This document shows positions 18,470 to 19,985 of a stretch of DNA of 64,000 nucleotides, piece after piece. The stretch lies in the NCBI RefSeq assembly GCF_009914755.1, contig NC_060931.1. One strand, given 5' to 3'. A model generated the notes under the pieces. The model was given only the letters and a program-made list of their open reading frames with translations, searched no databases and was not told the DNA's origin. This DNA is from the human T2T-CHM13v2.0 reference genome, Homo sapiens. The position numbers and the translations under genes were made by a program. Numbering within the stretch: position 1 is the first letter of the stretch; each line of letters starts with the position of its first letter.

Positions 18470-18650
18470 TAATCCTAATAACATCTCTCATTATATAGTG
18501 CTTTCTCTATGCTGCTCAGGATTCTTAGCACTTACCATATATTATCTCATTTAATCCTCACAACAATCCTACCAGATGCAAACTATTTTTATCTCTACTT
18601 TACAGATAAAGAAACTGAGTCACAGATAGGATAAGTGACTTGTGCCTGCA
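18470..18650 (-). mobile_element. MIR
   Basis: Core TCTCATTTAATCCTCACAACAATCC ... TTTTACAGATAAAGAAACTGAG. Confidence 0.75.
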
Positions 18651-18779
18651 TCTACTCTGTTCCCAGTCTCTGTTGTGAGTCTCATTCTCTCACCTGTACT
18701 CACTGCTTGCTTTCTGGAATCCAGTTGAATAATTAGTATTTCCGGAGAGCCCCCATGGCTTTAAAACACTTGTCCAAGT

Positions 18780-19265
18780 TAGCAATATCCTTCAAAATTT
18801 AAATTGCACATACATTTGACCCAGCAATTTCTTTCCTAGGAATATATAGAAATAATCACTCAAGTATATAAAAATATTGTAGCACAACACTGTTTGTTGC
18901 AGCCTTGTTTCCAGTGCTAAAAAATTGGAGACAAGAGGGAGCCATTGTGGCTCCGGCTGGTTGCGCTGGCACTCAGGGTAGGCGAGGCTACGAGTTCGAG
19001 GCCAACCTGGTCCACATTGGTTGAAAAAAAAAAATTAAAAAAAAAAAATTGGAGACAAACTCAAATAGCTACCACCATGAAATTGGTTAAATAATTTATG
19101 GGGCACCCATGCAAATTAGGGTCCTATGGAGGCATGGAAATAATGTGTAGCTCTCTATGCACTGACCTGGAAAGACGTCACAATGTATGAAATGAAAGAA
19201 GAAAAAGATTGAATGACCTTGTTTTTGTAAGAAATAAATAATAATCATATTACATGTTATTAGTC
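18780..19265 (+). mobile_element. Old L1 (L1ME-like) 3' fragment hosting the snaR-like insertion
   Basis: TTTGACCCAGCAATTTCTTTCCTAGGAATATAT ... GCAGCCTTGTTT ... TTGGTTAAATAATTTATGG. Confidence 0.7.
18935..19042 (+). ncRNA. Retrocopy of a snaR-family / CAS-type (Alu-left-monomer-derived) Pol III small RNA
   Basis: GGAGCCATTGTGGCTC...GGTTGCGC...ACGAGTTCGAGGCCAACCTGGTCCACAT matches the recalled 5' and 3' blocks of snaR but lacks the central expansion; A tail 19024-19042; perfect 16-bp TSD AAAAAATTGGAGACAA at 18919-18934 and 19043-19058. Confidence 0.85.
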
Positions 19266-19316
19266 TGAGAGAAAAAAGTCTGTGTATAACCAAGCTAGTC
19301 CTAGTCATTATTATTT

Positions 19317-19611
<295 letters not shown>

Positions 19612-19694: not shown

Positions 19695-19985
<291 letters not shown>

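What the first reader, a model, noticed from the sequence alone, without database searches (positions are those of the whole stretch)
18919..19058. Retrotransposed snaR/CAS-type Pol III small-RNA gene with intact promoter boxes
Seen: a ~90-nt GC-rich unit plus A tail, bounded by a perfect 16-bp TSD at an L1-endonuclease-like site (CT/AAAA) inside an old L1. It has an A-box-like TGGCTCCGGCTGG (18948-18960), a B-box GAGTTCGAGGC (18992-19002) and 5 CpGs; the first T4+ terminator is at 19222. Known (from memory): the blocks GGAGCCATTGTGGCTC and ACGAGTTCGAGGCC-CCTGGTCCACAT belong to snaR (small NF90-associated RNA), which arose from an Alu left monomer via ASR and CAS intermediates; mature snaR genes spread mostly by segmental duplication on chr19. 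Inference: this copy lacks the snaR central expansion, so it looks like a CAS-stage element mobilised by L1, a rare mini-SINE that repeat annotation may mislabel as a FLAM scrap. It may still yield a ~290-nt Pol III RNA with a unique L1-derived 3' end.
Basis: partly seen in the sequence, partly recalled or inferred. Interest (0 to 1): 0.8.

Follow-up and report, generated by a model that had tools for sequence, protein, structure and literature searches.

The report
Known CAS/snaR retrocopy in old L1
This is a real ~90-base retrotransposed copy of the ancestor of the ape-specific snaR small-RNA genes, frozen half-way between the older CAS element and snaR, but the family, and very probably this copy, was described in 2011.

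Summary
A perfect 16-bp direct repeat (18919-18934 and 19043-19058) brackets an 89-nt GC-rich body plus an A11-TT-A6 tail, inside a remnant of the L1 ORF2 C-terminal region.

The body matches the Rfam snaR-A model end to end (59.4 bits, E 7e-13, below the gathering score of 98). It lacks both central snaR expansions.

In the window's own genome its best relative is a chr21 copy (91% identity), taken here to be snaR-21. Its 16-nt 5' block occurs only at snaR-lineage loci: 65 exact sites, 61 of them on chr19.

It has snaR-type bases at 6 of 11 diagnostic columns and CAS-type bases at 5. It branches as sister to all snaR genes (support 0.977).

This fits Parrott et al. 2011 (PMC3045588). They defined CAS as a low-copy retrotransposon family with target-site duplications, and named a human chr7 element, Hs7i, as intermediate between CAS and snaR. 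Of the three chr7 copies found, only this one is intermediate, so it is almost certainly Hs7i. The supplement holding the coordinates could not be read.

Present-day Pol III transcription (~290 nt, first T-run at 19222) is untested and unlikely. Interest is low.

The parts
18919..18934 (+). 5' copy of the target-site duplication (AAAAAATTGGAGACAA)
   Evidence: 16 of 16 identical to 19043-19058. It encodes KNWRQ of the host L1 ORF2 remnant, the counterpart of KTWNQ in the human ORF2p sequence printed.
18935..19023 (+). 89-nt body of the CAS-to-snaR transitional retrocopy
   Evidence: Rfam snaR-A model positions 1-115, 59.4 bits, E 7e-13, with two central gaps; 91% identity to chr21:23095692-783; alignment, diagnostic columns and tree.
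18948..18960 (+). A-box-like stretch TGGCTCCGGCTGG
   Evidence: differs from the same stretch of the chr19 array copies (TGGCTCCGGCCGG) by one C-to-T change at a CpG. Its position fits the +11 to +22 given for CAS in PMC3045588.
18994..19002 (+). B-box GTTCGAGGC
   Evidence: Fits GWTCRANNC. Identical to the chr19 snaR copies. About +58 from the GGGAGCC start, against +57 to +65 given for CAS.
19024..19042 (+). A-rich tail: A11, TT, A6 (up to A12 if the A's of the duplication are counted)
   Evidence: The same A-run, 1-3 T, A-run layout is seen in the chr21 and chr12 retrocopies.
19043..19058 (+). 3' copy of the target-site duplication
18775..18918 (+). 5' flank: remnant of the L1 ORF2 C-terminal coding region
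   Evidence: 8 dispersed paralogs match 18775-18847; a reading frame of paralog L062 hits LINE-1 ORF2p residues 1156-1215, E 6e-16; the window piece 18803-18868 hits ORF2p 1168-1185; E 1.6 is weak, but L1 ORF2p chains were the only hits.
19059..19200 (+). 3' flank: continuation of the same L1 remnant
   Evidence: in paralogs L058 and L062 the two flanks map to adjoining positions that overlap by 16 nt, as expected for an empty site. The 3'-flank alignments score only just above the shuffles (40 against a maximum of 38; 37 against 36).
19222..19226 (+). First T-run (TTTTT) downstream, the only candidate Pol III terminator
   Evidence: A transcript starting near 18937 would be about 290 nt.

Best explanation
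This is a processed retrocopy (retropseudogene) of the Pol III-transcribed master gene of the CAS/snaR lineage. It was made when that gene had acquired about half of the snaR-specific substitutions but neither of the two 8-nt internal expansions.

Inferred mechanism: a Pol III transcript of the master gene, placed on chr19 by Parrott et al., carrying an A-run and probably 2 U's left from its terminator plus added A's, was reverse-transcribed by L1 ORF2p at a nick in CT/AAAAAA inside an old L1. This produced a 10-16-bp target-site duplication.

The copy lost the parent's 5' flank and its adjacent T-run terminator. It is most likely a silent molecular fossil. It is very probably the element called Hs7i in Parrott et al. 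2011.

Shown: anatomy, family assignment, intermediate state, L1 host. Inferred: the source locus, the timing (after the orangutan split and before the human-chimpanzee split, per the paper), silence, and identity with Hs7i.
For: - Anatomy: perfect 16-bp repeat, A-rich tail, and no flank similarity to snaR duplicons.
- Family: the Rfam snaR-A model matches end to end at 59.4 bits. On the same scale the chr19 array copies score 104-109, the chr2 copy 93.7, chr21 70.7, chr12 63.4, and four plain CAS 34-42. Two of the 12 loci scanned, L046 and L052, had no snaR-A match at E <= 0.001.
- Lineage-specific blocks: GGAGCCATTGTGGCTC has 65 exact sites in the genome (chr19 61; chr3, chr7, chr12, chr21 one each; reversed control 1). 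The 28-nt B-box block has 36 sites (chr19 34, chr7 1, chr21 1; control 0).
- Diagnostic columns: 6 snaR-type and 5 CAS-type of 11.
- Tree: sister to snaR + chr21 + chr12, support 0.977.
- Descent from Alu: alignment to two window Alus shows the two deletions that define ASR and CAS.
- Literature: CAS are ~85-nt retrotransposons, more than 69% of human copies have short direct repeats, and Hs7i/Pt7i on chr7 are intermediate between CAS and snaR.
- Identity with Hs7i: the three chr7 copies found are 26.18, 45.72 and 122.07 Mb, and the other two are plain CAS.
Against: - Identity with Hs7i rests on elimination. The supplementary dataset with coordinates is an old .doc that could not be read.
- The genome searches scored only 40 of 106 and 40 of 53 candidates.
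- The series ours, chr21, chr12, snaR is not perfectly nested. At alignment column 106 (TTGGTT) ours has the snaR state while chr21 and chr12 keep the CAS state. At columns 40 and 73 the reverse holds. So parallel change, or more than one master gene, is needed.
- Two of the five 'CAS-type' columns (65, 66) lie beside the second expansion and may be alignment artefacts.
- Silence is inferred, not shown. The B-box is consensus, and the A-box differs by one base from copies that I equate by sequence with the transcribed snaR-B/C.
- No primate genome was on hand, so age and orthology come from the paper only.
Confidence: 0.88

Rival explanations
1. The copy is still an active Pol III gene. Its internal A and B boxes drive a ~290-nt RNA with a snaR-like 5' domain and a unique L1-derived 3' part ending at the T5 run at 19222-19226.
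For: The B-box is consensus and identical to the chr19 snaR copies. The A-box-like stretch differs from those copies by one base. Five CpGs are retained. One human CAS locus, on chr8, has ESTs compatible with Pol III transcription (Fig. S4 legend).
Against: That legend says evidence existed for only one CAS locus, and it is not this one. Table 1 of the paper calls the comparable copies snaR-12 and snaR-21 apparent pseudogenes. Conti et al. 2015 (PMC4333407, abstract seen) found that selected Alus needed their native 5' flank as well as the internal promoter for in vitro transcription; this copy has an L1 flank instead. The fold of 18937-19035 is not unusually stable (z -1.51; 20 of 200 shuffles fold as well). 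No expression or ChIP data could be consulted here.
Confidence: 0.07
2. It is an ordinary free left Alu monomer (FLAM) or Alu fragment, and the snaR likeness is only shared Alu ancestry.
For: The lineage does descend from an Alu left monomer. The B-box region matches window Alus over 34 nt at 79%. The paper says RepeatMasker rates ASR closest to FLAM_C/AluJb.
Against: Only those two 34-nt matches to Alus exist in the 64-kb window, against 85-91% end-to-end matches to CAS and chr21 copies. The 16-nt 5' block is found at snaR-lineage loci only (65 sites). Alus in the fetched loci match Rfam Metazoa_SRP, while this element gave no such match at E <= 10. Alignment to Alus needs two gaps of about 16-19 and 14-16 nt.
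Confidence: 0.02
3. A plain CAS retrocopy inserted earlier and later acquired snaR-type bases in place, by substitution or by gene conversion from snaR genes.
For: [quoted passage not shown] The mosaic pattern (snaR-type ends, CAS-type centre) and the conflicting column 106 would fit a conversion tract.
Against: At least six independent in-place changes towards the snaR state in 89 nt, with only about 2-3 private changes, is improbable. The terminal branch is very short. The direct repeat (16 of 16) and the tail are almost undecayed, which fits a young insertion. Ectopic conversion of a 90-nt unit on another chromosome is rare (established knowledge).
Confidence: 0.05

Closest known systems
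CAS (catarrhine ancestor of snaR) retrotransposons, Parrott et al. 2011, PMC3045588
   Same: An ~85-90-nt body derived from an Alu left monomer with both deletions and without the snaR expansions. A-box near +11 and B-box near +57. A-rich tail, target-site duplication, dispersed intergenic or intronic location.
   Different: It carries snaR-type bases at 6 of 11 diagnostic columns, plus the ATT block in GCCATTGTGG. It is only 73-85% identical to the 23 plain human CAS copies compared.
Hs7i / Pt7i, the chr7 CAS elements 'intermediate between CAS and snaR' (same paper, section read)
   Same: Human chromosome 7, intermediate sequence, no expansions. It is the only one of the three chr7 copies found with these properties.
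   Different: Nothing known to differ. Coordinates could not be compared because the supplementary dataset is unreadable.
snaR-21 (21q21) and snaR-12 (12p12), called pseudogenes flanked by short direct repeats (Table 1)
   Same: Retrocopies of the same stem lineage with target-site duplications and T-interrupted A-tails. The chr21 copy is the closest paralog (91%; 77 of 86 aligned columns) and also lacks both expansions. That these loci are snaR-21 and snaR-12 is my inference from chromosome and approximate position.
   Different: Ours branches earlier. It keeps CAS-type GGCAC and GAGGCTAC where chr21 and chr12 have GGCCC and GAGGGT. The chr12 copy has the first expansion.
snaR genes (chr19 arrays, snaR-H, snaR-I); Rfam RF02556
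   Same: 5' block GGAGCCATTGTGGCTC, B-box block ACGAGTTCGAGGCCAACCTGGTCCACAT, TTGGTTGAAAA 3' end.
   Different: It lacks both 8-nt expansions, the conserved duplicon flanks and the A-run/T7 terminator. It scores 59.4 bits against a gathering score of 98. It spread by retrotransposition, not segmental duplication.
Alu left monomer / FLAM_C, and BC200 as another FLAM-derived RNA gene
   Same: Ultimate ancestry, a type 2 Pol III promoter layout, and L1-dependent mobilisation through an A-rich 3' end.
   Different: Two internal deletions relative to Alu. No Rfam Metazoa_SRP match. Roughly two dozen copies in the genome, not hundreds of thousands.

Membership tests
CAS retrotransposon family (Parrott et al. 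2011) | Alu-left-monomer derivative carrying both deletions (delta1 between the A and B boxes, delta2 after the B box) | tested here: met
   alignment to two Alus of the window needs a gap of about 16-19 nt before the B-box region and about 14-16 nt after it.
CAS retrotransposon family (Parrott et al. 2011) | No epsilon1 or epsilon2 expansion; body of about 85 nt | tested here: met
   gaps opposite both expansions. The body is 87-89 nt.
CAS retrotransposon family (Parrott et al. 2011) | Consensus B-box at about +57 to +65 and an A-box-like enhancer at about +11 to +22 | tested here: met
   GTTCGAGGC at 18994-19002; A-box-like stretch at 18948-18960.
CAS retrotransposon family (Parrott et al. 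2011) | A-rich 3' tract and flanking short direct repeats | tested here: met
CAS retrotransposon family (Parrott et al. 2011) | CAS-type bases at the positions that separate CAS from snaR | tested here: inconclusive
   5 CAS-type and 6 snaR-type of 11 columns. It is transitional, as the paper describes for Hs7i.
CAS retrotransposon family (Parrott et al. 2011) | An ortholog in at least one other catarrhine (for Hs7i: chimpanzee Pt7i) | not testable with these tools
   No primate genome other than the window's own is held.
snaR genes (Rfam RF02556) | Reaches the Rfam gathering score (98 bits) | tested here: not met
   59.4 bits. The chr19 array copies score 104-109.
snaR genes (Rfam RF02556) | Both internal 8-nt expansions | tested here: not met
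snaR genes (Rfam RF02556) | Conserved duplicon flanks and an oligo(A)-oligo(T) terminator directly after the gene | tested here: not met
   flanks unrelated to those of the chr19 and chr2 copies; first T4+ run lies 199 nt after the end of the body.
snaR genes (Rfam RF02556) | Pol III transcription and NF90 binding | not testable with these tools
   No expression, ChIP or CLIP data are available here.
Ordinary Alu / FLAM | Contiguous full-length similarity to an Alu left monomer | tested here: not met
   only two 34-nt, 79% matches in the window; two large gaps; no Metazoa_SRP match, unlike neighbouring Alus.
L1-mediated (target-primed) retrocopy | Target-site duplication of about 7-20 bp, a 3' A-tail, and a nick site resembling TTTT/AA on the bottom strand (consensus recalled, not from a call) | tested here: met
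   10-16-bp duplication and an A-tail. The top strand reads CT/AAAAAA, so the bottom strand reads TTTTTT/AG, one mismatch from the recalled consensus.

The most novel reading that the evidence does not exclude
The locus is not a dead fossil. It is still a working Pol III unit whose intact B-box and near-intact A-box produce a ~290-nt chimeric RNA (snaR-like 5' hairpin plus a unique L1-derived 3' part, terminating at 19222-19226) in testis, placenta or immortal cells. This RNA could bind NF90 as snaR does, which would make this a living example of the pre-expansion stage of snaR evolution.
Probability: 0.06. Interest if true: 0.45.

Novelty: already known. Interest (0 to 1): 0.12.

Why it matters
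The copy is a dated snapshot of a gene in the making. It records the snaR master gene after about half of its snaR-specific substitutions and before its two internal duplications, so it helps order the steps by which an Alu monomer became an ape-specific NF90-binding RNA. That use was already made of it (as Hs7i) in 2011, so the present value is confirmation in a complete genome assembly. The small addition is the T-interrupted A-tail shared by the three stem-lineage retrocopies. It hints at which form of the RNA was the template for L1.

Tried and rejected
- Pfam scans of the L1-like reading-frame pieces of the window (5 pieces) and of paralogs (8 pieces) gave no L1 family. The L1 assignment was obtained instead from solved ORF2p structures. 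One window piece (18872-18934) gave no hit at all.
- A DNA search for paralogs of the 5' flank found only 8 short matches (50-70 nt) that stop before the insertion site. A more permissive local alignment was needed to bridge the site, and its 3'-flank scores are barely above the shuffles.
- RNA folding gave no sign of special stability (z -1.51).
- Attempts to confirm the coordinates of Hs7i failed. The supplementary dataset is an unreadable .doc. The supplementary figures hold no text for Hs7i. The 2009 Cold Spring Harbor paper is not held. The 2011 review does not mention chr7.
- A full-text search for 'catarrhine ancestor of snaR' found only the two Parrott and Mathews papers. A search for snaR with Pol III, ChIP-seq and Alu found 10 papers, 8 listed. 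The one I opened (PMC4333407, passages) does not mention this locus.
- Chance as an explanation of the direct repeat was considered and rejected. The repeat abuts exactly the ends of a unit that aligns end to end with family members.

Full report
**Observation**

The window reads, from 18919: AAAAAATTGGAGACAA, then an 89-nt GC-rich unit (18935-19023), then A11-TT-A6 (19024-19042), then AAAAAATTGGAGACAA again at 19043-19058. The repeat finder reports the two 16-mers as 100% identical. The first six bases of the repeat are A's that merge with the tail, so the duplication is 10-16 bp.

Measured on 18937-19023, the unit has 63% G+C and 5 CpGs. The first run of four or more T's downstream is TTTTT at 19222-19226. 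The B-box GTTCGAGGC (18994-19002) fits GWTCRANNC as printed in the supplement of Parrott et al.. The A-box-like stretch lies at 18948-18960.

**What the unit is**

An Rfam scan of 18700-19300 at E <= 10 gives one strong hit. The snaR-A model (RF02556) is matched from its first to its last position at 18936-19035, 59.4 bits, E 7e-13, below the gathering score of 98. Two central gaps fall where snaR has extra sequence. No SRP/Alu-type family is matched at the element.

A search of the window's own genome with 18935-19030 scored 40 of 106 candidates. The best relative is chr21:23095692-23095783 (91% identity). Next come the chr19 tandem arrays (78-81%, with gaps), chr12:20992028 (83%), chr2:77959947 (80%) and a set of dispersed copies at 82-87%.

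A second search used a typical dispersed copy as query (40 of 53 candidates scored). It listed about two dozen dispersed ~93-nt copies and two further chr7 copies, at 45.72 and 122.07 Mb.

- GGAGCCATTGTGGCTC occurs 65 times: 61 on chr19 and one each on chr3, chr7 (this element), chr12 and chr21. The reversed control occurs once.
- ACGAGTTCGAGGCCAACCTGGTCCACAT occurs 36 times: 34 on chr19, plus chr7 and chr21. The control gives 0.

In the 64-kb window the unit finds only two 34-nt, 79% matches to Alus. Aligning it to those Alus needs one gap of about 16-19 nt before the B-box region and another of about 14-16 nt after it. It is therefore not an ordinary Alu or FLAM fragment.

**Intermediate state**

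I cut the family members out of the fetched loci and collapsed identical bodies. This left 34 distinct rows from 53 loci. L047 is the same place as L001, and the array copies collapse. I aligned these rows.

For the diagnostic count I used 23 plain dispersed copies as CAS and three rows as snaR (two chr19 array types and the chr2 copy). I left out four longer ASR-like rows (L050-L053) and one 5'-truncated row (L048). Eleven substitution-type columns separate the CAS majority from snaR.
- The window copy has the snaR state at 6 and the CAS state at 5.
- The chr21 copy scores 7, 3 and 1 other.
- The chr12 copy scores 6, 3 and 2 other.

Two of the window copy's CAS-type columns (65, 66) sit beside the second expansion and may be alignment artefacts. 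The ATT block in GCCATTGTGG, also shared with snaR, was not counted because CAS copies vary there.

By eye the copy is snaR-like at GCC-ATT-GTGG, GC-G-C, TAC-GA-GTTCGAGG, GGTC-C-ACAT and TT-G-AAAA. It is CAS-like at GGC-A-CTC and GAGG-C-TAC.

A FastTree tree rooted on the ASR-like rows places it as sister to the clade of snaR, chr21 and chr12 copies. Support is 0.977 for the larger clade and 0.937 for the inner one, and the terminal branch is very short.

Bit scores against the snaR-A model provide an additional measure, though one that also rests on sequence similarity:

| Copy | Bits |
|---|---|
| chr19 arrays | 104-109 |
| chr2 | 93.7 |
| chr21 | 70.7 |
| chr12 | 63.4 |
| this copy | 59.4 |
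| four plain CAS | 34-42 |

Two of the 12 loci scanned gave no snaR-A match at E <= 0.001.

The series is not perfectly nested. At column 106 this copy has the snaR state while chr21 and chr12 keep the CAS state. The opposite holds at columns 40 and 73. Some parallel change, or more than one source gene, must be allowed.

**How it got there**

The flanks share nothing with the flanks of the chr19 or chr2 snaR copies. This rules out segmental duplication.

The 5' flank has 8 dispersed paralogs. A reading frame from one of them (L062) matches human LINE-1 ORF2p residues 1156-1215 at E 6e-16. The window's own frame 18803-18868 (TFDPAISFLGIYRNNHSS) finds only LINE-1 ORF2p chains, residues 1168-1185, although weakly (E 1.6). 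A neighbouring 21-residue piece found nothing, and Pfam gave nothing.

The duplicated 16-mer encodes KNWRQ, the counterpart of KTWNQ in the ORF2p sequence printed.

In two paralogs (L058, L062) the 5' flank with its repeat copy and the 3' flank with its repeat copy map to adjoining positions that overlap by 16 nt. That is the picture of an empty site, but the 3'-flank alignments are barely above the shuffled controls.

The bases before the duplication are CT. The nick would therefore lie in TTTTTT/AG on the bottom strand, one mismatch from the L1 endonuclease consensus TTTT/AA. That consensus is recalled, not taken from a call. Together these features are the standard signature of L1-mediated target-primed reverse transcription.

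**Comparison with what is in print**

From Parrott et al. 2011 (PMC3045588) I read the abstract, Results sections 14-18, Discussion section 24, section 27, found passages, and the supplementary figures. The paper reports the following.
- CAS elements are ~85-nt elements of Old World monkeys and apes, with a B-box at +57 to +65 and an A-box at +11 to +22.
[quoted passage not shown] The authors read them as low-copy retrotransposons.
- snaR arose from CAS by substitutions followed by two 8-nt expansions.
- snaR-21 lacks both expansions and snaR-12 has only the first. Both are flanked by direct repeats and are called apparent pseudogenes.

The 2011 review (PMC3337139; abstract, sections 4 and 5, and passages) repeats this. 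A full-text search for the family's full name found only these two papers.

Of the three chr7 copies I found, the ones at 45.72 and 122.07 Mb are plain CAS. The window copy is therefore Hs7i by elimination.

I could not confirm this directly. The dataset with coordinates is an old .doc that the tools cannot read. The alignment figures are pictures.

My equating of the chr21, chr12, chr2 and chr3 loci with snaR-21, snaR-12, snaR-H and snaR-I rests on chromosome and approximate position in Table 1.

**Activity**

The internal promoter looks usable. The B-box is consensus, and the A-box-like stretch differs by one CpG transition from that of the chr19 array copies. Their sequences match the snaR-B and snaR-C lines printed in the supplement (compared by eye), and Table 1 lists those as transcribed.

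Several points argue against activity.
- The copy lost the parent's upstream flank and its terminator, so any transcript would run about 290 nt into L1 sequence.
- The Fig. S4 legend states that evidence of Pol III transcription existed for only one human CAS locus, on chr8.
- The abstract of Conti et al. 2015 (PMC4333407, passages) reports that selected Alus needed their native 5' flank as well as the internal promoter.
- The predicted fold is unremarkable.

I put the chance of meaningful present-day transcription at under 10%. No expression or occupancy data could be consulted.

**A detail seen on the way**

All 3 stem-lineage retrocopies have an A-run, then 1-3 T's, then a second A-run that abuts the duplication:
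- this copy: A11-TT-A6 to A12
- chr21: A10-T-A10 to A12
- chr12: A12-TTT-A5GA7

One CAS copy (L009) has A13-CCTT-A10. Among the other plain CAS copies with an exact duplication of 10 nt or more, most have uninterrupted A-tails. I count 1-2 T-interrupted tails among 10 such loci by my reading. That script required exact repeats, so it under-counts duplications.

In the snaR genes the A-run is followed directly by the T7 terminator. The orangutan parent locus reads A-rich, then CTTTT.

A possible reading is that the L1 templates were terminated Pol III transcripts that kept a few terminal U's and were then adenylated. This would differ from priming inside the internal A-run, as is usual for Alu. 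The sample is too small to decide. A source gene with T's inside its A-tract, or later mutation, would explain it as well.

**Verdict**

More exactly, the element is a CAS-to-snaR transitional retrocopy in an L1 ORF2 remnant. The kind of element, its mode of spread and very probably this copy are already published. Interest is low. What remains open is only whether the locus is transcribed and what the tail structure says about the template RNA.

Noticed in passing
window 19024-19048; L002 (chr21:23.10 Mb), L010 (chr12:20.99 Mb) and L009 (chr13:99.24 Mb) tails as printed: All three CAS-to-snaR stem-lineage retrocopies have an A-run, then 1-3 T's, then a second A-run before the target-site duplication. 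One CAS copy has A13-CCTT-A10. Most plain CAS copies have pure A-tails. This could be a remnant of the master gene's Pol III terminator followed by added A's.
   Followed up: partly
own genome, chr19:49.66-53.69 Mb: The complete assembly holds 61 exact copies of the 16-nt snaR 5' block on chr19, mostly spaced about 5.35 kb apart in two inverted arrays. Table 1 of Parrott et al. 2011 lists 26 snaR genes on chr19, so the arrays are about twice as large here.
   Followed up: no
alignment columns 40, 73 and 106 (window 18971, 18988 and 19020): The order window copy, chr21, chr12, snaR is not a clean nested series. The window copy shares TTGGTT with snaR (and, by eye, with the gorilla snaR-A clones printed), while chr21 and chr12 keep the CAS-type TTGATT. 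The window copy keeps two CAS states that chr21 and chr12 have lost. This points to parallel change or more than one source gene.
   Followed up: partly
window 18976-18980 (GGGTAGG); L003 and L046: The extra T in CAGGGTAGGCGAGG is shared with the chr19 53.2-Mb array copies (snaR-B-like). A similar extra T occurs in the plain CAS at chr7:45.72 Mb. This is probably a recurrent single-base event.
   Followed up: no
L046 (chr7:45,721,374-45,721,467): This plain CAS copy is followed by A9-T9-A5 and then an Alu. It keeps a long T-run right after its A-run, unlike most human CAS copies.
   Followed up: no
window about 19328-19610 and 19701-19984, minus strand (L001 positions 1894-2176 and 2267-2550): Two Alu elements lie just downstream, seen as paired Rfam Metazoa_SRP-type matches. 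The stretch 18600-18700 upstream looks like a MIR SINE; that is recalled from its sequence and was not tested.
   Followed up: no
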